32,000 nucleotides of DNA. Origin: Acaryochloris thomasi RCC1774 (GTDB lineage: Bacteria > Cyanobacteriota > Cyanobacteriia > Thermosynechococcales > Thermosynechococcaceae). Location of the stretch: positions 1 through 32,000 of the forward strand of contig NZ_PQWO01000011.1 of assembly GCF_003231495.1 (NCBI RefSeq). The letters are read 5' to 3'. The notes under the pieces were generated by a model. It worked only from the letters and a program-made list of their open reading frames with translations, made no database searches and was not told where the DNA came from. The position numbers and the translations under genes were made by a program. Positions within the stretch are counted from its first letter, which is position 1, and every line of letters begins with the position of its first letter. Below, one piece after another: positions 7,034 to 28,498 of this stretch.

Positions 7034-7200
7034 CACCAGGGTTCCTTCAGTATGATCCAACAAGGGATTGCAAGAGTGGCTGCATCAAGCCAGAGCCATC
7101 TGAAAACGTACAAGTTTGCGCAATATCGTCCTATACAGGGTAAATAAATAATCCGTAACATAGCTGGGTACCTAGCAAATACCGCGCATTAAGAACTGCT

Positions 7201-8094
7201 ATGCCAGATTTTACTCGCCGCCAAGTGATAACGACAGGTGCGATCGCAACCACAGGTTTCGCCAGTGCGATCGCTGCCAAAAGCGTTGCTGCAAACACAC
7301 TCAACCCACCGGAACCGCAAAGTGAGTCAGCTAAATCTAGCGGTAGATTCTCTGAGAAAGTTGTTCTGATTACGGGAGCAACCTCTGGCATTGGTGCGAC
7401 AACAGCTAAAGCGTTTGCAAAAGAAGGGGCAAAGGTTGCATTCAACGGACGTCGCGCGAACCTCGGACAACAGGTAGAAAAGGATATTCGCGCTCTTGGA
7501 GGAGAAGCCACTTATTTTCAGTCTGATGTGCGGGACCCTAAACAGGTAGAACAGTTTGTCAATGCCACTGTCGATAAATATGGCCGGTTGGATATCGCCT
7601 TCAACAATGCGGGTGTGTTTATGACGCCAGTAGAAATTCAAGAGATGGATCTCGATAACTATCGCAATATGATCGCCACCAATCTTGACGGTGTGTTCTA
7701 TGCGATGCGATATGAGCTGCCTGTTATGATTCAGCAAAACAGCGGCATTATTATCAATATGGCATCAGTGGCTGGACATCGGGGTTTCGCTAACACGCCA
7801 CATTACAACGCCAGCAAGCATGGCGTCATTGGTCTGACTAAAGCTGCTGCCAGCGCTAACGCAAAACGTAATATTCGCATCAATTCCATTTCTCCTTTAG
7901 CTGTTGATACCCCGATGCTGCAGCAGTCCTTCGAATATCAAGGATTGACATACGAGCAAATGGCTCCCAATTTTGTCACTCCCCGAATTATGAACACTGC
8001 GGAAATAGCGCAGGCTGTCATGTTCCTGGCTTTAGATGAAGCAACTTCTATTAATGGAATGGACTTAGACGTTACGGGTGGACAACTCGCATAA
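7201..8094 (+). CDS. SDR-family oxidoreductase with twin-arginine (Tat) signal peptide
   Basis: N-terminus MPDFTRRQVITTGAIATTGFASAIAAKS (RR motif, h-region, AxA). Followed by TGATSGIG Rossmann motif, NNAG, and catalytic S...YNASK. Confidence 0.85.
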   Translation: MPDFTRRQVITTGAIATTGFASAIAAKSVAANTLNPPEPQSESAKSSGRFSEKVVLITGATSGIGATTAKAFAKEGAKVAFNGRRANLGQQVEKDIRALGGEATYFQSDVRDPKQVEQFVNATVDKYGRLDIAFNNAGVFMTPVEIQEMDLDNYRNMIATNLDGVFYAMRYELPVMIQQNSGIIINMASVAGHRGFANTPHYNASKHGVIGLTKAAASANAKRNIRINSISPLAVDTPMLQQSFEYQGLTYEQMAPNFVTPRIMNTAEIAQAVMFLALDEATSINGMDLDVTGGQLA

Positions 8095-10361: not shown

Positions 10362-11324
10362 TCACCAAACGCCCGTTTGCTTTAGAAAAGGCGAAAACTC
10401 TGGAATTGACCAGTGCAGCGGCAGACTGCCTTCTACCCGATAGCCGCTTTTGGGATGGAAGCGGAACAATCGTTCAGCCCCAGCGAAGGCTTCGACCTCA
10501 GCGCCGCTCCAAATTACCTCGGCAGCTCCAGTGAGATATAGCAGATCTCCCCGTTGGAAATCAAGAAATAATAGTCCAGCCCGAGGGTTCAGTTCGATAT
10601 TGCCGAAGGTATTGAAATGGCAATTCCCTGAAAAGTCAGGAACCGTGAGTGTATCGTCATCATCAATGCGGACGAAGCCCGGTTTACCGCCCCGATGGGA
10701 GACATCAACGCCGCTGGCCGCGCCTGCTGCTTCATTTTGGTAGGCTGTGGCAATAAAAAAGGTATCGGCTGCCGTAATCAGCGATCGCTCCGATTCAGAC
10801 AAGGCTGTTAACTTGTGTACTGGCTTCGGTGCGGCTGGATCGAATGCATCCAACGCTGAGGAGCGAGCCTGAATGTACTGTGGGCAATTGCCGAAGGTCT
10901 GTACCACCTGAATCTCAAAGCTATCAATATGAACTGCACTGATGCTTCCGTTGACTCGATTGCGACGACGGTTTTCTAGCTCAATGCCGAGCAACCCGAT
11001 ATCGCGCCCCTTTCTCAAGGTCTTAGCCAGCGGATCACCAAAGAGAGGCTGAGCGTTGATCCGCAGAGTTTGCTGATCGGGAGCCGAGATGAAACCGGGT
11101 TTCCCTACAAGGATTGAGGCCCAAATCTGATCTGCTTCGTCCACTGTGCCAACGGTCACATAGGGAAGCTGAGGAAAGAACTGACAATGCTGCTTGGTTA
11201 GAGACTCCCGGATCATGCGTCGACCTTGGCGATCCATGCGCTCCTGAGCACCGAACCGTGCTTGAATTGCGAGTTCACCCTGATGGAAGGGGGATTCTGA
11301 ACGGGGCCAGCCTGGAATTGCCAT
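10362..11324 (-). CDS. Pyridoxamine 5'-phosphate oxidase-like (FMN-binding split-barrel) family protein
   Basis: SPFHQGELAIQARFG...MIRESLTKQHCQFFPQLPYVTVGTVD and a second barrel-like half (FFIATAYQ...VDVSHRGGKPGFV). ATG 11324 (MAIPGW) is preferred because 11357 would overlap the upstream VOC gene. Confidence 0.65.
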   Translation of the reverse strand: MAIPGWPRSESPFHQGELAIQARFGAQERMDRQGRRMIRESLTKQHCQFFPQLPYVTVGTVDEADQIWASILVGKPGFISAPDQQTLRINAQPLFGDPLAKTLRKGRDIGLLGIELENRRRNRVNGSISAVHIDSFEIQVVQTFGNCPQYIQARSSALDAFDPAAPKPVHKLTALSESERSLITAADTFFIATAYQNEAAGAASGVDVSHRGGKPGFVRIDDDDTLTVPDFSGNCHFNTFGNIELNPRAGLLFLDFQRGDLLYLTGAAEVIWSGAEVEAFAGAERLFRFHPKSGYRVEGSLPLHWSIPEFSPFLKQTGVW

Positions 11325-11340
11325 TGTATTTACGCTCCGC

Positions 11341-11742
11341 TCAAGATCCAGGGGCAAACAGTTCCATGCGGATGCCCCCTGGGATATAGAACATCATGTG
11401 ATGGGCAGGAAAACCGTTCAAGGATTCTGGAGCAAACTCGATTTCAACGCCTTCAGTATTGACGAGCGTTTGATGAAGAGTGTTGAGGGTGTTGAGGCTG
11501 TCGACCTTGAGGGCAAAATGGTGGAGGCCGATGTTGTTTTTACGATCAAAGGGGGTTGCTGAATCAGGATTGACCGCCTGCCATAGGGTCAACATGGTTG
11601 TCCCATCAGAGATGAAAGCAGCAGGATAGTCAGGGACCTCACCGACCTGCTCAAACCCCAATACGTCAATGAAAAAGTTGCGGGTAGCTGTTAGGTCAGG
11701 GACGGTGAGCCCAATATGGTGAGCGCCTTGAGTAATGGCCAT
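11341..11742 (-). CDS. VOC (glyoxalase/bleomycin-resistance/dioxygenase) family protein
   Basis: HHIGLTVPDLTATRNFFIDVLGFE ... GLHHFALKV ... is the typical paired beta-alpha-beta-beta-beta VOC pattern. Confidence 0.85.
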   Translation of the reverse strand: MAITQGAHHIGLTVPDLTATRNFFIDVLGFEQVGEVPDYPAAFISDGTTMLTLWQAVNPDSATPFDRKNNIGLHHFALKVDSLNTLNTLHQTLVNTEGVEIEFAPESLNGFPAHHMMFYIPGGIRMELFAPGS

Positions 11743-17947: not shown

Positions 17948-18724
17948 CTAACAGGCATAGGCCGCCATGCTGAGCGTACCGTAAGTAAAACCGCGATAAA
18001 GCTGTTGTCCTTTGATAGCCTTCCCGCCAGCTCCTAAAGCGACAAACAAAGGCAGCAAGTGCTCTTCGGTGGGGTGGTTCTCTTGAGCATAGGGCGCTAA
18101 TTGTCGATAGTTGAGCAGATCATCCCAGTTCCCCTGTGTGATTGTTTTAGCCAGCCAGTCATCAAACTGAGTCACCCATTCTGGAGGGGATGCACTGTAG
18201 CTCTCTCTAGAAGCATTGAGATTATGAGTCGCACTCCCGCTGCCGATAATCAGGACTCCTTCCTGCCGTAATGCTTCCAACGCCTGACCCACTTCCCAGT
18301 GATAACGCGGATCGCGATACGGCTGAATCGAAAGCTGTATGACCGGAATGTTAGCCTTGGGGTAGATCAAAGTCAAAGGGGTCCAAGCCCCATGATCAAG
18401 ACCTCTAAAGGGATGCACCTCACACGTAATACCCGCTTGAGTTAGCAATTCAGAGGCCCGAGCCGCCAGTTCAGGATCACCACTAGCCGGGTAACTTAAT
18501 TCGTAAAGCTGCTTCGGGAAACCTGAAAAGTCATGGATTGTTCTGGGTTGTGGTGTTGCACTCACGACGGGGGAATCTGAAAGCCAGTGAGCAGAAATCA
18601 CCAGAATAGCCTTGGGACGAGGAATCTGTTTGTGCAGGGCCCGCAAAAACTGTTGAGCGGCTCCCTCTCGAATAGGGAGGTCTGGCGCGCCGTGGGATAA
18701 AAAGATGGCGGGTAGCTCGTTCAT
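17948..18724 (-). CDS. Class III extradiol ring-cleavage dioxygenase (YgiD/4,5-DOPA-dioxygenase-like, LigB superfamily)
   Basis: MNELPAIFLSHGAPDL...RPKAILVISAHW...HGAWTPL...GSGSATHNL...EEHLLPLFVALGA parallels E. coli YgiD motifs (recalled). ATG 18724 is preferred. GTG 18814 is an alternative. Confidence 0.85.
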   Translation of the reverse strand: MNELPAIFLSHGAPDLPIREGAAQQFLRALHKQIPRPKAILVISAHWLSDSPVVSATPQPRTIHDFSGFPKQLYELSYPASGDPELAARASELLTQAGITCEVHPFRGLDHGAWTPLTLIYPKANIPVIQLSIQPYRDPRYHWEVGQALEALRQEGVLIIGSGSATHNLNASRESYSASPPEWVTQFDDWLAKTITQGNWDDLLNYRQLAPYAQENHPTEEHLLPLFVALGAGGKAIKGQQLYRGFTYGTLSMAAYAC

Positions 18725-18917
18725 GGTGAAAAATTTAAGGTCGTTTTGTTCGTAGCCATGTGCTCCACTGACGCCAGCGGGCGCGCAGAACCTTTTAATG
18801 AGCGGGCCATCCACCAGTGAATAGATATGAGTCGCTTGAAGGCTGAATTATTTTTTGCTGATGTCAAGCTCATGATTTTCACCTTGCGCTCCTGATAGAC
18901 TCCTAACGCTGGCGATG

Positions 18918-19382
18918 CTAGATCGAGCCAATGGCATAGGCTCCGTCCCCCAGAAGGAACTGCACTAGAGATGCGATCGCAAACAAAGCCGGAAACTCCC
19001 AGCCCCCTCCTTCATTGGTGAATAGCCAACCATTGGCACCATGTACTTTGAGTGTGGCAACCAGCAAAATTGGGAACAGTCCCAAAGCTACCCAACGCGT
19101 ATAAATCCCGGCAATTAACAGCAGTCCACCGATGATTTCGGCCAAGGCAACGGGTGCGGCCATAAAGCCCGGAAGCCCGACGCTATCAAAAAACTGAGCG
19201 GTCCCTGGCAACGTAAACGTAAACACCTTCAGCAAACCGTGGGCGAGAAAGAGCAGCCCCAAGCTGAGCCGTAAAAGTGCGATCGCATAGGGCGCAGTAT
19301 CCAAATCAATCGTAGGCTTCGCCAACCGCAGAGAGCGGGCCGGAGGCGCGGAAGAAACAGGATCGTGAATAGTGAGCTTCAT
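18918..19382 (-). CDS. DoxX-family membrane protein
   Basis: ALLRLSLGLLFLAHGLLKV...AEIIGGLLLIAG...TLKVHGANGW is the canonical DoxX pattern. Confidence 0.85.
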   Translation of the reverse strand: MKLTIHDPVSSAPPARSLRLAKPTIDLDTAPYAIALLRLSLGLLFLAHGLLKVFTFTLPGTAQFFDSVGLPGFMAAPVALAEIIGGLLLIAGIYTRWVALGLFPILLVATLKVHGANGWLFTNEGGGWEFPALFAIASLVQFLLGDGAYAIGSI

Positions 19383-19466
19383 TTTCTCTTCTCTCCAGAA
19401 CTGTACTAATTAAAACTATGGGCAAAAAAATTGTATCCATTGCGAGTCAAATTGCGATAGCTCCAA

Positions 19467-19649
19467 TCAGTAGGAGATCTCGACAACCTTAGGGGCTTGA
19501 ACCTCTAGTTCTATGGGCTGGAGCGAGGTGCTTTGATGGCCGCCGTCGCAGTAGGGAGCATTCTTTGATAATCCGCAGCTACAGATCCAGTGGGTACCCG
19601 TCTCTAGGTGGGCAGTGGCCGAAGATGTGGCGCTATGTTGTGACATCAT
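19467..19649 (-). CDS. CDGSH iron-sulfur domain protein (mitoNEET-like)
   Basis: CSCGLSKNAPYCDGGH fits C-x-C-x2-(S/T)-x3-P-x-C-D-G-x-H. ATG 19649 is preceded by GAAGGA. Confidence 0.8.
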   Translation of the reverse strand: MMSQHSATSSATAHLETGTHWICSCGLSKNAPYCDGGHQSTSLQPIELEVQAPKVVEISY

Positions 19650-19747
19650 GAAATCCTTCTGCTGGTTAAATATAGTTCTAATTAGAACCATGCAGAAATA
19701 CTAGCTCACTCAAGCCGATTCTGGCAAGAGAGTTTTAGGGATTATCT

Positions 19748-20203
19748 TTAGAAAGCCTGCTTTAGGCGACTAAGCAGAACTTTTAAAAGTTCTAGTTCTG
19801 AAGGATCAAGTCTCTCAAACCGCTCCTTCAGGTAAGCAATATGCTCAGGGAAAACCTTTTCAAAGTTTTGCTGCCCTTCTGGCGTCAATTGAACAATGAC
19901 GCTGCGGCGGTTGTCTGCGGGGGTTTCTCGGTACACGAGCGATTTCTTGATCAGGCGATCGATCACGCCAGTTAACGTTCCTTTAGTGATTAGGGTCTTT
20001 TCGCCGATTTCTCCCATGCTCAAACCGTTGGTATTGCCGAGGGTTGCAATCACGTCGAATTGAGCAGGCGTAAGATCGAACTGTCGAATATGAGTATCTG
20101 AACAGGCTGAGAATGATTGATAAGCCCTCGTCAACTCCCGCATAGTGGCAACGAAGGATTCATTGGCGGCTTGGGCCGTCGCTTTTGAGGGGGCCGTAGA
20201 CAT
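19748..20203 (-). CDS. MarR-family transcriptional regulator
   Basis: LTPAQFDVIATLGNTNGLSMGEIGEKTLITKGTLTGVIDRLIKKSLVYRETPADNRRSVIVQLTPEG. First gene of a four-gene same-strand cluster. Confidence 0.85.
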   Translation of the reverse strand: MSTAPSKATAQAANESFVATMRELTRAYQSFSACSDTHIRQFDLTPAQFDVIATLGNTNGLSMGEIGEKTLITKGTLTGVIDRLIKKSLVYRETPADNRRSVIVQLTPEGQQNFEKVFPEHIAYLKERFERLDPSELELLKVLLSRLKQAF

Positions 20204-20278
20204 CAAGAATTTTGGTTAAGAGTGTTCTGGCTAGTTTTATCCTACAGGGAAGGGTTTGATTATTCTGTGGACTTGATT

Positions 20279-21279: not shown

Positions 21280-21627
21280 CTATTCTTTAATTGCCTCTAA
21301 AACTTTAGCAATCATGATCTTCAACTGTGGCACATCTGTCTGAACTGCCTCCCAGATGATCTCTACATCCGTATTGAAGTAATCATGAATCAACTTATCT
21401 CGCATTCCAGCAATATCCCGCCAGGGTATATCAGGATATTGGCTTCTTACAGAGTCTGGAACCCGTTTCACTGCTTCACCAATAATTTCCATCGCCCTTG
21501 ATACCGCAAATACTTTCTCTAAGTTTTGCGAAAATGCTTCAAATTTAACACCCGCCGTAAACTGCTCGATCGCATCCACCGCATCCAAAATATCCTCTAA
21601 ATAATCCTGAATCTGTCGCTGGGTCAC
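21280..21627 (-). CDS. hepT: HepT-like (DUF86) ribonuclease toxin, type VII TA
   Basis: Rx4HxY active-site motif (RDKLIHDY) in a ~115-aa helical protein. The GTG start overlaps the stop of the upstream MNT gene (GTGA at 21624-21627). Confidence 0.85.
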   Translation of the reverse strand: MTQRQIQDYLEDILDAVDAIEQFTAGVKFEAFSQNLEKVFAVSRAMEIIGEAVKRVPDSVRSQYPDIPWRDIAGMRDKLIHDYFNTDVEIIWEAVQTDVPQLKIMIAKVLEAIKE

Positions 21628-21917
21628 AGATAGACCACCTCCGCCAAAATCCGTTTACCAATGCGTGGCTTTAAACCAGCTTTATGCACGAGGTCAACCT
21701 TTACACCCAAATTATCGCTGAGGTAGTTCTCTAAATTGACGAACTTCAAAAGGCTCGGTGTCTTAGAGAACTCCACCAGTACATCCACATCACTAGATTC
21801 CGTCTGTTCTTGCCTAATGTAAGAGCCAAAAATCCCTAACTCTCTGATTTGATAACGCTCCTGCAATACTGATTGGTGCTGTACTAACCATTCCTTAATT
21901 TCTTCCAAAGTTTTCAC
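21624..21917 (-). CDS. mntA: MNT-type nucleotidyltransferase antitoxin
   Basis: GIFGSYIRQEQTESSDVDVLVEF is the GSx10-11DxD nucleotidyltransferase motif. No ATG is available. GTG 21917 is preceded by GAGAGGG 7 nt upstream. TTG 21941 is the track's alternative. Confidence 0.8.
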   Translation of the reverse strand: MKTLEEIKEWLVQHQSVLQERYQIRELGIFGSYIRQEQTESSDVDVLVEFSKTPSLLKFVNLENYLSDNLGVKVDLVHKAGLKPRIGKRILAEVVYL

Positions 21918-22028
21918 AGCTCTACCCTCTCTCAAAGACAAGCACAGTAAGTAATCTACCCTACCTTGTATTAATTATCAGTAAATGAGGCCGGCTTCTC
22001 TTCAAATTTCAACCAGACAAGAACTTGC

Positions 22029-22087: not shown

Positions 22088-22927
22088 ATGTTTCGCATTG
22101 GTGAGTTTTCCAAAATTGCCCAGGTGCCTGCTAGTCTGCTGCGCTACTACGACGATATTGGGTTGTTTAAACCGATGGAGTGCGATCGCAACACCAGCTA
22201 TCGCTACTACAGCGTTCAGCAACTCACCGAACTCAACCGCATTCTTGCCCTCAAAGATCTGGGACTCTCGCTAGAGCAAATCAAGCGTCTGACTGAAGAG
22301 GAGGTCTCTCCCGATGAAATTCGCGGGATGCTCTCTCTAAAAAAGGTGCAGATTGAGCAAACCCTCCAAACCGAAGCCGCTCGCCTTCGAGCGGTAGAAT
22401 CTCGCCTGCAGCAGATTGAGCGCCAAGGGCAGTTTCAAGATGACGACGTCGTTTTGAAATCTCTACCTGCAACGCCTTTCTTGTCATTGCGGCGGACCTA
22501 TCCAGACCTAGCGCAAACCTTCGCAGCCATCTCAGACGTGGGACAGGCTGTGAACAAACAAGTTGATGCTAAGTCCATTGGGCACTTTGCCGCCGTGATT
22601 TACGGAGAGCTGTATGAAGAAGCGAACTGGGACTTAGAGTTTGGATTCTTGCTGACTCAGGCTCTAGACATCAGCGTACCGTTAGCTAACGGTTCATCAA
22701 TGGATGTCCGAGAATTACCTCCAGTCGAAATGGCAGTGACGGCGGTACGGTTTGGTGGTCCTGAAAAGGGGCACCTCTCCTACAGCGCCATAGGTACCTG
22801 GGCAGAAAACCATCAATACAAGCTGATTGGGCCGGGGCGGGAGGTTTTTATCGTGCCACCGAAACCGGGCCATGAATCAGAAATGGTGGTCGAAATTCAG
22901 TTTCCGGTGGAGGCACTGGCTGCTTAA
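22088..22927 (+). CDS. MerR-family regulator with C-terminal GyrI-like effector-binding domain
   Basis: MFRIGEFSKIAQVPASLLRYYDDIGLFKP...YRYYSVQQLTELNRILALKDLGLSLEQIK (MerR HTH and coiled coil). A ~150-aa C-terminal half ending ...VEIQFPV is typical of GyrI/BmrR-like ligand domains. Confidence 0.85.
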   Translation: MFRIGEFSKIAQVPASLLRYYDDIGLFKPMECDRNTSYRYYSVQQLTELNRILALKDLGLSLEQIKRLTEEEVSPDEIRGMLSLKKVQIEQTLQTEAARLRAVESRLQQIERQGQFQDDDVVLKSLPATPFLSLRRTYPDLAQTFAAISDVGQAVNKQVDAKSIGHFAAVIYGELYEEANWDLEFGFLLTQALDISVPLANGSSMDVRELPPVEMAVTAVRFGGPEKGHLSYSAIGTWAENHQYKLIGPGREVFIVPPKPGHESEMVVEIQFPVEALAA

Positions 22928-23058
22928 CCCGTCAGGAAGACTCTGAGTTTTCTGCTTTTGCCTTGCTGACAATCCAAGACGTATTGGCAGATAGCTGTGT
23001 TTAGCTGTCACAGAACGTGTTGGTCAATTTCACACAATCCAAAATAGGAGATTAAACC

Positions 23059-23256
23059 ATGCCTACGATTAAACTCACGGTTCCCAAGAATGCTTGGACG
23101 AAGGATGAAAAAGCCAAGCTCGTTGAGCGGTTTACGAATACGCTCAGTGACTTTGCTCAAGAAGCGGGCAAAGGCGATATCAAGCCATTTATCGGAGTCC
23201 AGATCGAAGAAACGGCTGAAGGTGGTTATGCCATCGGAGGCCAGATTTTTGGATAA
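23059..23256 (+). CDS. Tautomerase-superfamily (4-oxalocrotonate tautomerase-like) protein
   Basis: 65 aa beginning MPTIKLTV (Pro-1 after Met removal) with a beta-alpha-beta-sized fold. AGGAG RBS at 23047-23051. Confidence 0.7.
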   Translation: MPTIKLTVPKNAWTKDEKAKLVERFTNTLSDFAQEAGKGDIKPFIGVQIEETAEGGYAIGGQIFG

Positions 23257-23410
23257 GAATCATCAAATAAAATTCCCCATCCCCGGAAAGTAGAAGCTCA
23301 GCGCAATGCTCCACTCAAGGCGGCTTGATAGAGCTTTAGCTGTTCTCAATCACAGAGGTGGAAGCGCCTGTGACTTGCACCTCTATTTAAATCTTGATGA
23401 GAAGAATAGT

Positions 23411-23815
23411 ATGACAATCGAACTCTGGTCTCTATTGAGCGTCACTGCAATCTTGTGGATTGCGATCTTGGTTCAACAGCTTCAGCTTGATATAACGGGT
23501 GGAGCCAAATACGCTTTATCAAACCGAGAGCAAGGCTATAGCTTTAAAGAAGCGACGGCACTGACGGGTCGTTTGGCTCGCAATGTCCGCAACCATGTTG
23601 AGGGTTTAGCTCTGTTTGCCCCTCTTGTTCTGACGGCTGCGATCGCAAACATCTCAAATACCTGGACTCAATCTGCTGCGATCGCTTTTTCCGTCACGCG
23701 GGGGCTACATTTCTTTTTCTATGCCGCAGGCATCACACCGTTCCGCAGTTTCGCCTGGGGGATTGGTTTCTTTTTAGCCCTCGGTAGCTTTGTGTTCGGC
23801 CTAATTACGGGCTAA
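23411..23815 (+). CDS. MAPEG-family membrane protein (glutathione-transferase-like)
   Basis: ATG 23411 (MTIELWSLL...). Four helices, with RNHVEGLALFAPLVL and ...RGLHFFFYAAGI resembling MAPEG conserved segments. Confidence 0.7.
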   Translation: MTIELWSLLSVTAILWIAILVQQLQLDITGGAKYALSNREQGYSFKEATALTGRLARNVRNHVEGLALFAPLVLTAAIANISNTWTQSAAIAFSVTRGLHFFFYAAGITPFRSFAWGIGFFLALGSFVFGLITG

Positions 23816-24134
23816 ATATTAGACCTCTTACATAAATCAGCGACCTCTTCTGCATTCCTCCCCTTGGCCCCTTTTTGCTTGTTCAAGTTAACGACATCTG
23901 GTTACAGCAAATATTGATGAAATTTGGCCCATCTAACGAGAAGGACTTTCCTCGAGTGGTGCATTTTTGAAACATTGAGCCGCATTTTTGGCTATTCCCG
24001 TCGCATGAATATCAACTTATTGTATGAGCAGGCTACCGACCCAGTTCAAGCATTAATCTGACTCAATCTTCAACGAGACAAGAACTCAACAGCACTCGTT
24101 ACAGTGCCCCTGCTGTTTTCTCCAGAGATGAACT

Positions 24135-26288
24135 ATGAAACCGAACAACAATCAATTTGACGTAGCGATTATTGGCTCCGGTATCGCCGGTTCAACTCTG
24201 GCGTCGATTCTAGCCCGCCAAGGCCAAAAGGTGATTCTCTTTGAGGCCAGTAGTCACCCCAAGTTCGCCATCGGAGAATCCATGATCCTGGAAACCTCCG
24301 AGATCATGCGGTCAATGGCGGAGTTCTACGATGTTCCAGAACTCGCCTACTTCAGTTCTGAAAATTATTTCGAACACATCGGTACTTCCCACGGCGTTAA
24401 GCGCCACTTTAGCTACGCACACCATACCGAAGACCAACCTTTCAACAGAGATCATACGCTGCAGGCAGTGATTCCCAAGCAGCCCCACGGCCACGAACTC
24501 CATCTCTACCGGCAGGATACCGATTATTTTTTGATGACGGTCGCTATCCGCTATGGAGCGAAGGTTTTGCAGAAGACCAATATCCAGTCTGTTCATATTG
24601 ATGCTGATGGTGTGCAGTTGACTACGGATAGAGAACAAGAGTTTCAGGCGGAGTATGTTGTCGATGCTGGCGGTTTCCGGTCGCTGTTAGCTGAGAAATT
24701 CGATCTACGTCATCATGATCTACCAACCCACTCGCGGGCGATTTTTACACACATGGTTGAGGTGCCTTGCTACCACGAGGTGAGTGCAACCAAAGAGAGC
24801 TATCAGCTTCCGTTTCAATTGTCTGAAGGAACTCTGCACCATGTCTTTGAGGGGGGCTGGCTGTGGGTAATTCCCTTCAATAACCATGCGAAATCGACGA
24901 ACCCGCTTTGCAGTGTGGGTCTGATGCTAGATCCTCGAGTGCATCCCCAGCAATCTGAACTCAGTCCTGAAGCAGAGTTTTATCAATTTATTGAGCGCTT
25001 CCCTGGTATTGCTGCTCAGTTTACGCAGGCCAAGGCAGTAAGGGACTGGACGCGAACCGGACGGATTCAGTACAGCGTCAAGCAAGTGGTGGGCGATCGC
25101 AACTGTCTCCTCGGCCAAGCGGCAGGATTCATCGATCCGCTATTTTCAAAGGGACTTTATACATCGTTGTCTTGTACATCGTTGCTGGCAGACCGTTTAC
25201 TGGCCGCGCACAAGACAGGTGACTATTCTGCTTCTTTTTTCAAACCCGTCGAGGAGATGACGCTGGGATTTATTCAAGCCAATGATCATCTAGTTGCCAA
25301 TGCCTACAGATCATTTGCAGACTATCGGCTCTGGCAACCGTTTTCAGTGCTGTGGCTGTTGGGTGCGTACCTGGAATTAGTGAAACTGACGAGCGATCGC
25401 GCCCAAACTATAGACCGCTCTAACTACTATCGACGGTTACAAAATCTCAGGATGGTCGGAGGAGGCTTTCCTGAGTTTGAACGGCTTTCTCAGCAGATTT
25501 ATACACTTTTAGATGACTGCGTTACAGGTGCTTCCGTTACGCAAGTTAGTCAACAGATCAAAGCCCACCTCGATCAAACCTCTTGGATGCCCCAAACATT
25601 TAGGGCTATTTTAAACGGCAAGAATCACCTGCCGACCAGTAAGCTGCATCCCCGGTTACTGCGACGCAAGCAAGGGTTCTTCGGCACAGGGGACTATCGT
25701 ACTCACTTTTTTGCGGATAAGACTCTACCCTTCTTTATCCAATTCTATTTACGAGATAGGGCAAAGTATGGCAGCTCAGTTCTGCAGTTGAAACGCACGG
25801 CAAAACTGTGGCGACGGGGTTTGTTGCCTTCCCCTCAAGTGGGAACTGCGATAGTCTCTGATTGGCCTTCGGCCATCGCAATCTCAGCAATGGTGATCTC
25901 TGGCTTGGTGATTGGCCCCAGGATGCTGAATTCATCGCCGAATCTCGCCAGCACTGCCTCTGTCGATAAAACAGTTATGGGGCTGGTCAATTTTCTGGAT
26001 AATCCCACTGAGTTTAAGCTGGCCTGCGGGAATCATGCGGGGCAAGTTGTTGACGCTCAGGTTCAAGGCGATCGCATCACGATCAAGGTGGTTTCAGGTG
26101 GGATAGATCCTCGACGTGTCACGCTAACTGGCAGCTTGAATGAGCAGGGTGTTTTCAATGGCACTTATCAAACCGAGTTGCCTACAGGTTTAGCTTTTGG
26201 GAAGGTGCGCTTGAATTTTGATCAGGATGGTTCCGCTCAGGGCGTAAATGAGGATTGGGGAGGTGCGATCGCAATTCTCAAAATCTAA
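24135..26288 (+). CDS. Flavin-dependent halogenase-like enzyme fused to a hydrophobic segment and an uncharacterised C-terminal domain
   Basis: GxGxxG (IIGSGIAGS, aa 12-20), WxWxIP (GGWLWVIPF, aa 240-248; W242-P247 = nt 24858-24875) and FxxPxxSxG (FIDPLFSKG, aa 332-340, nt 25128-25154) are the two halogenase hallmark motifs. Hydrophobic stretch SAIAISAMVISGLVIG (~aa 579-594). The C-terminal ~110 aa (nt ~25962-26285) have no family I recognise. Confidence 0.8.
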   Translation: MKPNNNQFDVAIIGSGIAGSTLASILARQGQKVILFEASSHPKFAIGESMILETSEIMRSMAEFYDVPELAYFSSENYFEHIGTSHGVKRHFSYAHHTEDQPFNRDHTLQAVIPKQPHGHELHLYRQDTDYFLMTVAIRYGAKVLQKTNIQSVHIDADGVQLTTDREQEFQAEYVVDAGGFRSLLAEKFDLRHHDLPTHSRAIFTHMVEVPCYHEVSATKESYQLPFQLSEGTLHHVFEGGWLWVIPFNNHAKSTNPLCSVGLMLDPRVHPQQSELSPEAEFYQFIERFPGIAAQFTQAKAVRDWTRTGRIQYSVKQVVGDRNCLLGQAAGFIDPLFSKGLYTSLSCTSLLADRLLAAHKTGDYSASFFKPVEEMTLGFIQANDHLVANAYRSFADYRLWQPFSVLWLLGAYLELVKLTSDRAQTIDRSNYYRRLQNLRMVGGGFPEFERLSQQIYTLLDDCVTGASVTQVSQQIKAHLDQTSWMPQTFRAILNGKNHLPTSKLHPRLLRRKQGFFGTGDYRTHFFADKTLPFFIQFYLRDRAKYGSSVLQLKRTAKLWRRGLLPSPQVGTAIVSDWPSAIAISAMVISGLVIGPRMLNSSPNLASTASVDKTVMGLVNFLDNPTEFKLACGNHAGQVVDAQVQGDRITIKVVSGGIDPRRVTLTGSLNEQGVFNGTYQTELPTGLAFGKVRLNFDQDGSAQGVNEDWGGAIAILKI

Positions 26289-26365: not shown

Positions 26366-28498
26366 TTAAACAATCGCTGCCGACGGAGCCTCAATACTAG
26401 GAAGGGCATTTAGTTCTGCATCACTGAGCGGATCGCCACCCAAGTCACCATAAAGACGAGCGACCGCACCTGTGAAGCCCGCATTGTAGTCAAGGGCAAC
26501 CTCATTCGCGATGAAATCTGAGCGGATGTCCTGGTAGCCATCATCACTGGGCGAAGAAGGACCGCCCACGAGGGCACCATATAGCGTGTGTTCGTTGGGC
26601 TGTGGAGCGTTAACATCGTTAGTCCCTGACGCTCCTCTGTGGTGAGGATTGCGGGCAAAATCATCGCCAAATCCAACCAGATAGCTGAAGTCATTGGGGT
26701 TATCGCCCAAAATGTAATCAATTTGATCTCTGGAGAACTGATCGTACTGCCCGTTTTTATCATTGACGGTATCGCTATAAATCCCAGCCAAGAAAGCCGT
26801 ATTGGCGCTGTGTCGCAGCGAACCCCACTGACTGAGCCATGCTAGGCCACCGTCTGTGTAGGTCACCCCGGAACCTCCCTCTGGTGTCCAGTTGTCTAGC
26901 CAGGCTTCGACATCATTTCTGTAGATATCCTTACCCGTTGCTTGAGCCAGCAAGATGGCACCGCCAGCCGATTTGTTGTCCCAGTCCTGGGTCCAGTCTT
27001 GATTGACGCCTTCGTAGAGATTTTCGGCTTTATCCAAGTAAGCCTCATCCCCCGTTGCCTTATACAGCCAGGTGGCTCCCCAAACTAGCTCGTCATTGAA
27101 GCCGCTAAAGGAGTTATAGAAATTAGAGGCATCCGGGATGGAGTCAGAATATTTGCCGCGATAGGTATCGGCAAACTCAAAGAGCTGCTCCGCATTGGTG
27201 AGTAATTCATCTGCGTAGGCTTGATTGGTGGGCCGGAAAATCGTGGATGCCGCCGCTAAGGCTGCCGCTGCCTCGCCCGCAAGGTCAGAACCGGGGTTTT
27301 GGGCATCAATTTTGAATGCAGTTCTGGGCGCAGGTAACGACTCAGGAGATCCCCAATAAGCGTGGTCAGAGCCGCCTTCTCCCACCTGTCCCCAAAATGC
27401 GCGTGTTCCGTTGGGGCTAGAATCGTGAGCCTTGAGAATGTAATCAGTGCCCCATTTAATCGCGTCTAAGGCTTCATCTAGCTGACCACTTTGCTGATAG
27501 GCTCCTCGATACTCATTGACGCCCCACCCCAGCATGGTCATCGCCCCCGCCATCGGGAAGCCGAATTTGACGTGGTCACCTGCGTCAAAATAGCCGCCGG
27601 TTAAATCACGACCGACATCACTGCCGTCTGTAAGGGTAGAGTCACTGCGCCAAGCAATGCGGTTGTCTCTGGGAAGCGGACCGGAGCGGTTGGCTTCATA
27701 GAAAAGAAAAGACTTTTGCAGCGCCTCGCCATAGTTAAACTCTACAGCTTGAGGAGGATTTGGCGTCGGTGGATTTGGCCCAGGGGCAGGCGTGGGCGGA
27801 TCAATCGGGGGCGGTGCGGCATCGTCATCTTGAATCGTCGCGGTTCCAAACGTTTGATCCCCAAACTCAGCATTGCGAGGACGCCTGAGTCTCAAAGAGA
27901 AAGTCTCGTCCGATTCACTAATGTTGTCATCGAATAAGTTGACCCGAATGAGCTTAGAGGTTTGTCCGGGCCGGAAGACTAGCCTGCCACTGGTGCGCCT
28001 AAAGTCACTGCCTGAAGTGGCCGTGTCATTGCGGGTGGCATATCCAACGGTGACGCGCTCTTCGCTAGCCTCTGCTAGCTCTACTCTGAAGACCGCCGCA
28101 CCATCCCCCTCTGAAACAATGACATCCCCGATAGAAAGCTGAGGCAAAGGTGAGGAGGGTAGGGGCGCTGGGGGCGTCGGGGGCGTTCCTGGAGACTCTA
28201 TATCTTCTCCGTTCAGTGTGTAGCCGCTGGGTTCAGTCGTGGTCTCACCTTGACCGATAAAGCCAAACGAGACGGCATCACCTGAGGCGATGTTCTGGTT
28301 CCAGTCTAAATACTGAACAACGTAGCGGTTGCTGTTTTGACTGATGATTTCTGCATCCCAAATCTGTGTGATTTCAAAGGGGGCTTCAAATTCTAGTGTC
28401 CACCGATCTAATGAGTTTTGACCGTTGTTTGCAATGGAGATAGATCCCTGAAATCCTTGTTCCCATTGGCTCTCTACATTGAAGTCAACAAGATTCAT
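26366..28498 (-). CDS. Glycoside hydrolase family 9 endoglucanase with N-terminal CBM2-like and Calx-beta domains
   Basis: CBM2-like N-terminus (WEQGFQGSISIANNG...WTLEFEAPFEITQIWDAEI...GDAVSFGFIG). Calx-beta (LSIGDVIVSEGDGAAVFRVEL...TATSGSDF...DDNISESDETFSLRL). GH9 motifs (DLTGGYFDAGDHVKFGFPMA, NPHHRGA, DFIANEVALDYNAGF). Pro-rich linkers. Confidence 0.9.
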   Translation of the reverse strand: MNLVDFNVESQWEQGFQGSISIANNGQNSLDRWTLEFEAPFEITQIWDAEIISQNSNRYVVQYLDWNQNIASGDAVSFGFIGQGETTTEPSGYTLNGEDIESPGTPPTPPAPLPSSPLPQLSIGDVIVSEGDGAAVFRVELAEASEERVTVGYATRNDTATSGSDFRRTSGRLVFRPGQTSKLIRVNLFDDNISESDETFSLRLRRPRNAEFGDQTFGTATIQDDDAAPPPIDPPTPAPGPNPPTPNPPQAVEFNYGEALQKSFLFYEANRSGPLPRDNRIAWRSDSTLTDGSDVGRDLTGGYFDAGDHVKFGFPMAGAMTMLGWGVNEYRGAYQQSGQLDEALDAIKWGTDYILKAHDSSPNGTRAFWGQVGEGGSDHAYWGSPESLPAPRTAFKIDAQNPGSDLAGEAAAALAAASTIFRPTNQAYADELLTNAEQLFEFADTYRGKYSDSIPDASNFYNSFSGFNDELVWGATWLYKATGDEAYLDKAENLYEGVNQDWTQDWDNKSAGGAILLAQATGKDIYRNDVEAWLDNWTPEGGSGVTYTDGGLAWLSQWGSLRHSANTAFLAGIYSDTVNDKNGQYDQFSRDQIDYILGDNPNDFSYLVGFGDDFARNPHHRGASGTNDVNAPQPNEHTLYGALVGGPSSPSDDGYQDIRSDFIANEVALDYNAGFTGAVARLYGDLGGDPLSDAELNALPSIEAPSAAIV

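What the first reader, a model, noticed from the sequence alone, without database searches (positions are those of the whole stretch)
24135..26288. Orphan flavin-dependent halogenase fused to a putative membrane segment and an unknown C-terminal domain
The N-terminal ~520 aa carry GxGxxG, WxWxIP (GWLWVIPF) and FxxPxxSxG (FIDPLFSKG), the pair of motifs that separate halogenases from plain flavin monooxygenases. A Lys in GVKRHF (aa 89) lies roughly where variant-B halogenases place the chloramine-forming Lys (from memory; needs alignment). Unusually, the protein continues for ~200 aa. First comes a basic stretch, then a hydrophobic segment (SAIAISAMVISGLVIG, nt ~25869-25916), then a ~110-aa beta-rich-looking domain (…FKLACGNHAGQVVDAQVQGDRITIKVV…GKVRLNFDQDGSAQG…) that I cannot assign. 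No NRPS, PKS, carrier protein, flavin reductase or precursor-peptide gene is nearby. The neighbours are a MAPEG gene upstream and a convergent cellulase. A 319-nt untranslated region precedes the gene. The substrate and the role of the extension are open, and this may be a new halogenase architecture.
Basis: partly seen in the sequence, partly recalled or inferred. Interest (0 to 1): 0.7.

Follow-up and report, generated by a model that had tools for sequence, protein, structure and literature searches.

The report
Membrane-anchored halogenase with outer barrel domain
This cyanobacterial gene encodes a genuine flavin-dependent phenol halogenase that one lineage has fused to a membrane anchor and a small, previously uncatalogued barrel domain predicted to sit outside the cytoplasm, an arrangement I found no description of in two full-text searches for this enzyme class.

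Summary
ORF 24135-26288 (717 aa) is intact, and full-length homologues at 61-85% identity occur at about ten other loci, so the extension is not a frameshift artefact. Residues 1-~560 are a PltM/CtcP-type flavin-dependent halogenase with GxGxxG, WxWxIP and FxxPxxSxG. K89 aligns with the catalytic Lys87 of PltM and is invariant. This is not the carrier-dependent "variant B" type. The true extension is about 155 aa: a basic stretch, one hydrophobic helix (~577-597, positive-inside, so N-in/C-out) and a 106-aa domain. AlphaFold models that domain at pLDDT 93.6 as a helix plus an eight-stranded barrel. It matches no Pfam, NCBIfam or PDB entry. Elsewhere it occurs as small proteins with signal peptides or anchors, so it is probably extracytoplasmic. 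All anchor-bearing forms fall in one cyanobacterial subclade. They are never in NRPS/PKS clusters. A LysR regulator and a MAPEG membrane glutathione-transferase homologue recur beside them. The 319-nt spacer carries the operon's conserved promoter/operator element. My best reading is halogenation of a free, membrane-partitioning phenol at the cytoplasmic face. The barrel would bind a ligand outside, and MAPEG would handle the product. The substrate and the barrel's role remain inferred.

The parts
24135..26288 (+). Whole gene: 717-aa membrane-anchored flavin-dependent halogenase (stop codon included)
   Evidence: ORF list. It is 100% identical to P0001 of Acaryochloris thomasi RCC1774.
24135..25814 (+). 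Halogenase core, aa 1-~560: FAD-binding fold plus the helical C-terminal region typical of PltM/CtcP
   Evidence: Pfam Trp_halogenase 3.9e-19. PDB sequence search: CtcP 8.7e-105 and PltM 4.3e-96. Foldseek on the AF2 model: CtcP TMt 0.88-0.89 and PltM TMt 0.89-0.90, against 0.71 or less for PltA and 0.75 or less for every other non-PltM/CtcP structure.
24174..24191 (+). GxGxxG FAD-binding motif (GSGIAG, aa 14-19)
   Evidence: Regex on the translation. G14, G16 and G19 are invariant in the 47-sequence alignment.
24399..24401 (+). Codon of K89, the predicted chloramine-forming catalytic lysine
   Evidence: K89 aligns with the Lys in PltM 'CGIKLGF' (native K87) and in CtcP 'SHGQKSNF'. It is invariant in 47 homologues. 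PltM K87A is inactive (PMC6424973).
24858..24875 (+). WxWxIP motif (WLWVIP, aa 242-247)
25128..25154 (+). FxxPxxSxG motif (FIDPLFSKG, aa 332-340)
25755..25862 (+). Basic juxtamembrane stretch (aa ~541-576, ...RDRAKYGSSVLQLKRTAKLWRRGLL...)
   Evidence: Read directly from the sequence. In 24 anchored homologues the 20 residues before the hydrophobic segment carry +1 to +6 net charge, against -2 to +3 after it.
25863..25925 (+). Single predicted transmembrane anchor (aa ~577-597)
   Evidence: Kyte-Doolittle maximum 1.83. A hydrophobic segment sits at the same position in 24 homologues despite low sequence identity. AF2 pLDDT is below 50 for aa 570-610.
25968..26285 (+). C-terminal domain (aa 612-717): N-terminal helix plus eight-stranded antiparallel barrel, an uncatalogued family, predicted extracytoplasmic
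   Evidence: AF2 pLDDT 93.6 and pTM 0.85. No Pfam or NCBIfam hit and no PDB sequence hit. Foldseek best matches are designed eight-strand barrels and lipocalins, all at E > 1e-3. Free-standing homologues carry signal peptides or anchors.
23957..24009 (+). Conserved promoter/operator element in the 319-nt spacer (two GCATTTTTG repeats plus ATTCCCGTCGC)
   Evidence: It is 75-79% identical to the LysR-divergent promoter regions of L004, L008 and L016. The core ATWCCCRTCGC occurs 6 times in the 1.1 Mb fetched, always on the + strand and 108-585 nt upstream of the halogenase start.
23306..23815 (+). MAPEG-family membrane protein (type 'MAPEG1'), 319 nt upstream on the same strand
   Evidence: Pfam MAPEG 1.3e-18. 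Its orthologue sits beside MerR in L008. MAPEG genes are enriched next to anchored halogenases.
22088..23256 (+). MerR/GyrI-like regulator plus a 65-aa tautomerase-like gene; with MAPEG1 these form a separately conserved module
   Evidence: Pfam. The stretch is 72-74% identical at nucleotide level to L007, L008, L023 and L020.

Best explanation
The gene encodes a catalytically intact two-component flavin-dependent halogenase (FADH2, O2 and halide) of the PltM/CtcP clade. Enzymes of this clade act on free phenolic substrates.

In one cyanobacterial subclade this enzyme was fused at its C-terminus to what looks like a complete small secreted protein: a signal-anchor, a linker and a ~106-aa eight-stranded barrel. 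The product is a bitopic N-in/C-out membrane protein. The catalytic domain sits at the cytoplasmic face, where FADH2 is available. The barrel sits in the periplasm or thylakoid lumen.

The gene belongs to a small regulated operon rather than a biosynthetic cluster. That operon has its own conserved promoter/operator. In relatives it has a divergent LysR regulator and usually a MAPEG membrane glutathione-transferase homologue directly upstream.

**Shown:** halogenase identity and intact catalytic motifs; a conserved fusion; a hydrophobic anchor with positive-inside charge bias; export signals on free-standing relatives of the barrel; the recurrent MAPEG and LysR association; and absence of NRPS/PKS genes.

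**Inferred:** the enzyme halogenates a lipophilic, membrane-partitioning phenol at the membrane surface. The barrel binds a small hydrophobic ligand outside, either the product or a cue. MAPEG conjugates or detoxifies the electrophilic product, or protects the membrane.
For: **Halogenase identity**
- All motifs are present.
- K89 aligns with PltM K87 and is invariant. PltM K87A is inactive.
- CtcP and PltM are far the best matches by sequence (1e-105 and 4e-96 against 5e-30 for the next hit) and by structure (TMt 0.88-0.90).

**The fusion is real**
- Fifteen sequences carry anchor plus full domain; the 14 homologues are 61-85% identical to the query.
- All 24 anchor-bearing forms lie in one clade of 38 tips. 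The short members of that clade often keep the basic juxtamembrane stretch, so the tail was lost secondarily.

**Topology**
- There is a single hydrophobic segment, conserved in position, with +1 to +6 net charge before it and -2 to +3 after it.
- Of 39 Met-starting small hits (110-260 aa) to the domain profile, 37 have an N-terminal hydrophobic signal or anchor, and two have lipoboxes. A few of the 39 may be fragments of fused genes.

**The barrel**
- AF2 pLDDT 93.6.
- Nearest folds are ligand-binding eight-strand barrels and lipocalins.

**Genomic context**
- MAPEG lies directly upstream on the same strand in 6 of 11 anchored loci against 1 of 73 short-form loci. Fisher p = 7.5e-6, not corrected for phylogeny.
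- An orthologous LysR is found at L001, L002, L004, L007, L008, L013, L016, L017, L019 and L096.
- A free-standing barrel gene lies near halogenases in L019 and L009.
- A shared promoter element is present.
- A Synechocystis MAPEG acts in tolerance to lipid peroxidation (PMC6798054).
Against: - No topology predictor or experiment was available. The anchor is Ala/Ser/Gly-rich and only moderately hydrophobic, and AF2 models only a short helix there at pLDDT below 50.
- The substrate is unknown. The pocket differs from PltM (P48 to L52, L111 to P114, S404 to A411, N405 to Y412, by my residue mapping from the alignment, with PltM pocket residues).
- In this window the LysR and the operon-type MAPEG2 are absent. 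The adjacent MAPEG is of the MerR-associated type and sits 319 nt away, on the far side of the halogenase's own promoter element, so co-transcription is doubtful.
- Several lineages, including A. marina, keep the anchor but have a truncated barrel. The barrel is therefore dispensable for at least some functions.
- The MAPEG statistic is not phylogenetically independent.
- No flavin reductase gene is nearby.
Confidence: 0.6

Rival explanations
1. PltM/PltR-like signal generator. The enzyme converts a phenolic metabolite into a halogenated signal that the neighbouring LysR regulator senses, and the outer barrel senses or captures that signal. The role is regulatory, not biosynthetic or detoxifying. 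This overlaps with the best explanation.
For: PltM chlorinates phloroglucinol into signals that act through the LysR regulator PltR (PMC5395296). One orthologous LysR family lies upstream of the halogenase operon, divergent in most cases and same-strand and frameshifted in L007, at L001, L002, L004, L007, L008, L013, L016, L017, L019 and L096. A conserved operator-like element with direct repeats is present.
Against: No LysR is present in this 32-kb window. Relatedness of this LysR to PltR was not tested. The substrate pocket differs from PltM. No phloroglucinol synthase or other target pathway was seen nearby.
Confidence: 0.2
2. The hydrophobic segment does not cross the membrane. The whole protein is cytoplasmic or only peripherally attached, and the barrel acts inside the cell as a substrate-binding or delivery module for the active site.
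For: The segment is Ala/Ser/Gly-rich with modest hydrophobicity. AF2 gives only a short, low-confidence helix there. Lipocalin-like barrels commonly hold hydrophobic substrates.
Against: The segment is conserved in position in 24 homologues with a consistent positive-inside charge bias. Relatives of the domain are almost always preceded by a signal peptide, anchor or lipobox. The fusion looks like halogenase plus a whole signal-anchored protein.
Confidence: 0.12
3. It is an ordinary tailoring halogenase that serves a natural-product cluster located elsewhere in the genome. The anchor simply places it beside a membrane-bound biosynthetic or export machine.
For: Stand-alone halogenases acting in trans are known (my own knowledge). 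Only 32 kb of this genome could be inspected. Many relatives come from marine filamentous cyanobacteria, which are rich in halogenated metabolites.
Against: None of about 12 anchored loci, and none of the surveyed short-form loci, showed NRPS/PKS neighbours. The recurring neighbours are regulators, MAPEG, GST, SRPBCC and oxidoreductase genes.
Confidence: 0.12
4. The extension is an assembly or annotation artefact that joins two genes, or the enzyme is a flavin monooxygenase and not a halogenase.
For: The deposited name is 'kynurenine 3-monooxygenase'. The barrel also exists as a separate gene elsewhere.
Against: Uninterrupted full-length ORFs occur in independent assemblies at 61-85% identity. 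WxWxIP, FxxPxxSxG and the catalytic Lys are invariant. KMO matches only the Rossmann tip, at E ~5e-4.
Confidence: 0.03

Closest known systems
PltM (Pseudomonas protegens phloroglucinol halogenase; PDB 6bza)
   Same: It shares the FAD fold plus the 'unique' helical C-terminal region (E 4e-96 over aa 5-442; TMt ~0.9). The catalytic Lys (K87 = K89) is conserved, as are pocket residues E49, F90 and E115 (= E53, F92, E121). It acts on a free phenol rather than a carrier-bound substrate, and its gene lies in the same construct as the LysR regulator gene pltR (PMC5395296).
   Different: PltM is a soluble 502-aa monomer inside the pyoluteorin cluster (PMC6424973). This protein has an extra ~155 aa (anchor plus outer barrel) and is in no cluster. 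Its pocket is altered (L52, P114, A411, Y412 and a 4-residue longer His-rich loop at aa 113-123). It has MAPEG partners.
CtcP (tetracycline 7-halogenase; PDB 7xgb, 7v0b)
   Same: It is the best sequence and structure match (8.7e-105 over aa 5-412; TMt 0.88-0.89 over ~535 columns). Its length is similar to the core.
   Different: CtcP is a soluble enzyme of the chlortetracycline pathway and works with the reductase CtcQ (title and abstract of PMC12400496). No reductase, no type II PKS, no anchor and no barrel are involved there.
Short-form (~560-580 aa) homologues in Cyanobacteria, Chloroflexota and Deinococcota
   Same: They are 55-74% identical over the core and share all catalytic invariants.
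   Different: They end just after the core. In Chloroflexota they sit in operons with ABC transporter genes, a pyridine-nucleotide-disulfide oxidoreductase and a DedA-like protein; those family names are my reading of the sequences. MAPEG is nearly absent beside them.
Bitopic proteins with a cytoplasmic N-terminal effector and a periplasmic C-terminal sensor (ToxR/CadC-like, anti-sigma factors)
   Same: The topology logic is the same: a cytoplasmic functional domain, a basic juxtamembrane stretch, a single helix and a small outer domain. This is an analogy from my own knowledge.
   Different: Here the cytoplasmic part is an enzyme rather than a DNA-binding or sigma-binding module. There is no sequence relationship, and signalling across the membrane is untested.
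Lipocalin/calycin-type small eight-stranded barrels
   Same: The AF2 model is an N-terminal helix plus an eight-strand up-and-down barrel. Foldseek lists designed ligand-binding barrels (TM 0.52-0.60) and lipocalins (TM 0.45-0.5) first.
   Different: No match reaches E <= 1e-3, and there is no sequence similarity to any PDB chain or Pfam family. At ~106 aa it is smaller than natural lipocalins.

Membership tests
Flavin-dependent halogenases (Pfam Trp_halogenase PF04820) | GxGxxG dinucleotide-binding motif | tested here: met
   GSGIAG at aa 14-19, invariant in 47 homologues.
Flavin-dependent halogenases (Pfam Trp_halogenase PF04820) | WxWxIP motif, which separates halogenases from flavin monooxygenases | tested here: met
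   WLWVIP at aa 242-247. W242, W244 and I246 are invariant and P247 is nearly invariant.
Flavin-dependent halogenases (Pfam Trp_halogenase PF04820) | FxxPxxSxG motif | tested here: met
   FIDPLFSKG at aa 332-340. F332, D334, P335, L336, S338, K339 and G340 are invariant.
Flavin-dependent halogenases (Pfam Trp_halogenase PF04820) | Catalytic lysine that carries or directs the hypohalous species | tested here: met
   K89 aligns with PltM K87 and the equivalent Lys of CtcP and is invariant. PltM K87A is inactive (PMC6424973).
Flavin-dependent halogenases (Pfam Trp_halogenase PF04820) | FADH2-, O2- and halide-dependent halogenation activity | not testable with these tools
   This needs an enzyme assay with a flavin reductase.
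PltM/CtcP-type phenolic halogenases (free substrate) | Full-length similarity, including the helical C-terminal region absent from other halogenases | tested here: met
   E 8.7e-105 and 4.3e-96. Foldseek TMt 0.88-0.90 over 500-547 columns, against 0.71 or less for PltA and 0.75 or less for every other non-PltM/CtcP structure.
PltM/CtcP-type phenolic halogenases (free substrate) | Substrate-pocket residues of PltM (P48, E49, F90, L111, E115, S404, N405) | tested here: inconclusive
   E53, F92 and E121 are conserved. L52, P114, A411 and Y412 differ (alignment; residues). A phenolic substrate other than phloroglucinol is likely.
PltM/CtcP-type phenolic halogenases (free substrate) | Soluble enzyme encoded within its product's biosynthetic cluster | tested here: not met
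   A transmembrane anchor is predicted. No NRPS/PKS or pathway genes occur in the window or in about 12 related loci.
Variant B (carrier-protein-dependent) halogenases: PltA, CndH, Mpy16, Bmp2 | Closest similarity to PltA/CndH-type enzymes, with an adjacent carrier protein | tested here: not met
   PltA 2.1e-26, CndH 2.4e-15 and Mpy16 5e-30, against 1e-105 for CtcP. No carrier protein gene was found.
Lipocalin/calycin barrels (for the C-terminal domain) | Eight-stranded antiparallel up-and-down barrel with a flanking helix | tested here: met
   AF2 model at pLDDT 93.6: helix 3-15 followed by eight strands.
Lipocalin/calycin barrels (for the C-terminal domain) | Significant structural or sequence match to natural lipocalins | tested here: not met
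   Best Foldseek E is 5e-3, to designed barrels. Lipocalins score E 0.17-0.5 with TM 0.45-0.5. There are no sequence hits.
MAPEG (upstream neighbour, 23306-23815) | Match to the Pfam MAPEG model above the curated cut-off | tested here: met
   67.8 bits against a cut-off of 23.4. Glutathione-transferase activity was not tested.

The most novel reading that the evidence does not exclude
Two novel readings remain open.

1. The protein is a 'receptor-like' halogenase. Binding of a ligand to the outer barrel controls halogenation at the inner face of the membrane.
2. Alternatively, the halogenase and MAPEG form a membrane-embedded two-step pathway. Halogenation activates a lipophilic phenol, and MAPEG then catalyses glutathione substitution. 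This would be cryptic halogenation used to make a C-S bond or to clear a membrane phenol.

Either would be a function not yet described for flavin-dependent halogenases.
Probability: 0.12. Interest if true: 0.85.

Novelty: new variant of a known kind. Interest (0 to 1): 0.58.

Why it matters
This one would be anchored in the membrane and carry an exported ligand-binding-type domain. It belongs to a regulated operon with a membrane glutathione-transferase homologue.

That points to halogenation of membrane-resident or membrane-crossing phenols in marine cyanobacteria, which could be a signalling, defence or detoxification role. It also defines an uncatalogued domain family of small secreted proteins. 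The soluble core is a candidate PltM-like biocatalyst with a different substrate pocket. The wider ~560-aa family, found at 281 loci among species-representative genomes, has no characterised member that I could identify here.

Tried and rejected
- **Family searches for the C-terminal domain.** Pfam and NCBIfam scans of the domain and of ten free-standing relatives found nothing. A profile search of PDB sequences found nothing meaningful. Foldseek against PDB gave only designed barrels and lipocalins, all above E 1e-3.
- **Giant proteins.** Large proteins hit by the domain profile (P0131, P0154, P0162) are unrelated Thr/Gly-rich repeat proteins, so I discarded them.
- **Rfam.** A scan of the whole window gave no hits, so there is no riboswitch in the 319-nt spacer. 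The simple promoter/terminator scan found nothing useful on the + strand there.
- **Pseudogene remnants.** I looked for remnants of LysR or MAPEG2 in the spacer and for intact copies in the window, and found none.
- **Metagenome scan for free-standing barrel genes.** The first alignment was too diverse. The second returned only two loci identical to one already held.
- **Word-indexed search with the domain profile.** It gave only 11 small unannotated proteins.
- **A nearby flavin reductase.** The PNPOx-like plus glyoxalase pair at 10362-11742 is orthologous (59% and 72% identity) to a pair directly beside the halogenase in L095. It recurs in no other locus, so I treat it only as a lead.
- **Literature.** No paper links halogenases with MAPEG. 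Two searches found no description of a membrane-anchored bacterial flavin-dependent halogenase. Papers that mention halogenases and Acaryochloris mostly concern the vanadium haloperoxidase, judging by titles and one paper read.
Full report
**Observation.** The ORF at 24135-26288 (+) is a single uninterrupted 717-aa reading frame beginning at the most upstream in-frame start. It is identical to a deposited protein of Acaryochloris thomasi RCC1774 that carries the misleading name 'kynurenine 3-monooxygenase'. Apart from the Rossmann beta1 strand, the only hydrophobic segment lies at aa ~575-598, with a Kyte-Doolittle maximum of 1.83. The neighbours are as described: MAPEG upstream and a convergent GH9 cellulase with CBM2 and Calx-beta downstream. 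Pfam scans of window ORFs of 105 aa or more found no NRPS, PKS, carrier protein or Flavin_Reduct gene. Three ORFs were not scanned: two overlapping antisense ORFs at 7131-7737 and the 108-aa ORF antisense to the halogenase.

**What the N-terminal part is.** Pfam gives Trp_halogenase at 3.9e-19. Against solved structures, the tetracycline 7-halogenase CtcP (8.7e-105) and the phloroglucinol halogenase PltM (4.3e-96) are far ahead. The carrier-dependent enzymes score much lower: Mpy16 5e-30, PltA 2e-26 and CndH 2e-15. In those alignments K89 pairs with the Lys of PltM 'CGIKLGF'. By the numbering offset this is native K87. The PltM structure paper shows that residue to be catalytic, since K87A is inactive (PMC6424973). 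K89 and all three motifs are invariant in a 47-sequence alignment of homologues.

An AlphaFold model of the full protein (mean pLDDT 80) superposes on CtcP and PltM with target-normalised TM 0.88-0.90 over 500-547 columns. PltA reaches 0.71 at most. The halogenase fold therefore includes the helical C-terminal region peculiar to PltM and CtcP, and it runs to about aa 560 rather than 520. Of the PltM pocket residues, E49, F90 and E115 are conserved (E53, F92, E121). P48, L111, S404 and N405 are replaced by L52, P114, A411 and Y412, and a His-rich loop is four residues longer. I infer a phenolic substrate that is not phloroglucinol.

**The extension is real and has a single origin.** Of the 120 best homologues, 15 sequences including the window protein (61-85% identity to it) carry the hydrophobic segment plus the full C-terminal domain. 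About nine more keep the hydrophobic segment with a truncated or divergent tail, including the A. marina protein present in complete genomes. The rest, at ~560-580 aa, stop after the core. In a neighbour-joining tree of the cores, all 24 anchor-bearing proteins fall in one clade of 38 tips. The 14 short proteins inside that clade often retain the basic juxtamembrane stretch (LKRxxxLWK...) and then stop. This fits one fusion event followed by later truncations. A frameshift artefact is excluded.

**Topology.** The hydrophobic segment is conserved in position in 24 homologues although its sequence is not. The 20 residues before it carry +1 to +6 net charge, and the 20 after it carry -2 to +3. 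That is a positive-inside pattern implying N-in/C-out.

I searched a profile of the C-terminal domain against 1.84 billion representative proteins. Besides fragments of these halogenases, it found small proteins of 127-181 aa. Of the 39 small hits (110-260 aa) that start with Met, 37 begin with a hydrophobic signal peptide or anchor, and two have lipoboxes. A few of the 39 may be fragments of fused genes. The cyanobacterial free-standing proteins have the layout anchor-linker-domain. That is exactly what follows the halogenase core here, so the fusion looks like halogenase plus a whole signal-anchored protein.

The caveat is that the anchor is Ala/Ser/Gly-rich, and AlphaFold models only a short, low-confidence helix there. 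No dedicated topology predictor was available.

**The C-terminal domain.** Modelled alone with 26 sequences, it gives pLDDT 93.6 and pTM 0.85: an N-terminal helix followed by eight antiparallel strands. Foldseek against the PDB finds nothing at E <= 1e-3. The nearest entries are de novo designed eight-strand, small-molecule-binding barrels (TM 0.52-0.60), followed by lipocalins (TM 0.45-0.5). It has no Pfam, NCBIfam or PDB sequence match. It is therefore an uncatalogued small barrel family, and it is probably ligand-binding and extracytoplasmic.

Free-standing copies lie a few kb from halogenase genes in two loci. One is in L019, near a short-form enzyme, and one is in L009. Elsewhere they sit among peroxiredoxin, Zn-ADH, SDR, DUF427 and DUF1330 genes. 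The same families surround the long-form gene in L009.

**Genomic context.** None of the roughly 12 anchored loci examined contains NRPS/PKS genes.

- **LysR.** An orthologous LysR regulator lies upstream at L001, L002, L004, L007, L008, L013, L016, L017, L019 and L096, divergent in most cases.
- **MAPEG.** A MAPEG gene lies directly upstream on the same strand in 6 of 11 anchored loci, against 1 of 73 short-form loci. Fisher p = 7.5e-6, not corrected for phylogeny.
- **Two MAPEG types.** A 129-aa type ends between 19 nt inside (by the maximal ORF) and 116 nt before the halogenase start in L002, L004, L008 and L013. A second type is associated with a MerR/GyrI regulator. The window has only the second type, as part of a separately conserved MerR, 4-OT-like, MAPEG module. 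It lacks the LysR and the first MAPEG type, and no remnants remain.
- **Other recurring neighbours.** SRPBCC, GST, SDR and Zn-ADH genes also recur.
- **Literature.** A Synechocystis MAPEG protects against lipid peroxidation (PMC6798054). No paper in the library links halogenases with MAPEG.

**The 319-nt spacer.** It matches no Rfam family. A ~50-nt element at 23957-24009 is 75-79% identical to the LysR-divergent promoter regions of L004, L008 and L016. The element contains two GCATTTTTG repeats about 22 nt apart, followed by ATTCCCGTCGC. The core ATWCCCRTCGC occurs six times in the 1.1 Mb of fetched loci. Every occurrence is on the + strand, 108-585 nt upstream of a halogenase start, and is followed by a -10-like hexamer. 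The spacer is thus mainly the operon's promoter/operator region. The halogenase here probably has its own promoter, about 100 nt upstream of the start codon.

**Mechanism.**

*Shown:*
- An intact PltM/CtcP-type halogenase.
- A conserved fusion to an anchor and an exported-type barrel.
- Recurrent MAPEG and LysR partners.
- No biosynthetic cluster.

*Inferred:*
- The enzyme receives FADH2 from a cellular reductase.
- It halogenates a free, lipophilic phenol at the cytoplasmic face of the membrane.
- The barrel binds a hydrophobic ligand outside, either the product or a cue.
- MAPEG conjugates or detoxifies the electrophilic product, or protects the membrane.

The PltM/PltR precedent, in which chlorinated phloroglucinols act as signals through a LysR regulator (PMC5395296), makes a signalling role a serious and partly overlapping alternative. 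Lineages that keep the anchor but have lost most of the barrel suggest that membrane tethering is the more strongly selected feature.

**Novelty and verdict.** The catalytic core is a new member of a known clade. Two full-text searches returned no description of the architecture or the operon partnership. That architecture is a cytoplasmic halogenase, a single-pass anchor and an extracytoplasmic barrel of an uncatalogued family. I classify it as a new variant of a known kind and rate it of moderate to good interest. The substrate, the topology and the barrel's role all need experiments.

Noticed in passing
window 23957-24009: A conserved promoter/operator-like element: two GCATTTTTG direct repeats about 22 nt apart, followed by ATTCCCGTCGC. 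It is shared with the LysR-divergent promoter regions of homologous halogenase operons. The 11-nt core occurs only upstream of these operons in the 1.1 Mb fetched. The cognate LysR gene is absent from the window.
   Followed up: partly
window 22088-23815: The MerR/GyrI-like regulator, a 65-aa tautomerase-like gene and MAPEG form a separately conserved module. It is 72-74% identical at nucleotide level to L007, L008, L023 and L020, and it repeatedly lies near halogenase genes.
   Followed up: partly
window 17948-20206 (- strand): A MarR, DoxX, LigB-type extradiol dioxygenase gene string. It resembles catechol/quinone detoxification operons such as CatDE; that comparison is from my own knowledge.
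   Followed up: no
window 10362-11742 (- strand); L095 7517-9071: A PNPOx-like FMN-binding protein (331 aa) and a glyoxalase-fold protein are 59% and 72% identical to a pair located directly beside the long-form halogenase in L095. The PNPOx-like protein is a possible flavin-handling partner, but the pair was seen next to a halogenase in only that one locus.
   Followed up: partly
L031-L089 (Chloroflexota short-form loci), e.g. L082, L088, L063: The ~560-aa short-form halogenases recur (12-22 of 76 loci) with five neighbours: an ABC-type ATPase, a permease, a binding protein, a ~490-aa pyridine-nucleotide-disulfide oxidoreductase and a DedA-like membrane protein. A ~190-aa membrane protein is often immediately downstream. 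The family names are my reading of the sequences, not Pfam results. This is not a classical biosynthetic cluster, and I found no characterised member.
   Followed up: partly
L092, L093, L009, L019: Free-standing genes for the barrel domain sit among peroxiredoxin, Zn-ADH, SDR, DUF427, DUF1330 and YgaP-like genes. This suggests a link to redox or electrophile stress.
   Followed up: partly
L005/L006/L012 (Acaryochloris marina), protein P0017: The A. marina orthologue (678 aa, identical in two complete genomes) keeps the anchor but has only the first ~45 residues of the barrel. A Zn-ADH gene follows 15 nt downstream.
   Followed up: partly
window 4463-6436 (- strand): An MscS-type mechanosensitive channel carries a C-terminal DEP domain (Pfam 1e-22). 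I believe this combination is unusual in bacteria.
   Followed up: no
window 21280-21941 (- strand): A HepT-like ribonuclease and a nucleotidyltransferase (an MNT/HepT-type toxin-antitoxin pair) lie between the MarR/dioxygenase genes and the MerR module.
   Followed up: no
window 26366-28498 (- strand): The GH9 cellulase with an N-terminal CBM2 and a Calx-beta domain begins directly with the CBM2 in the listed ORF and shows no obvious signal peptide. The start codon or the export route may need checking.
   Followed up: no
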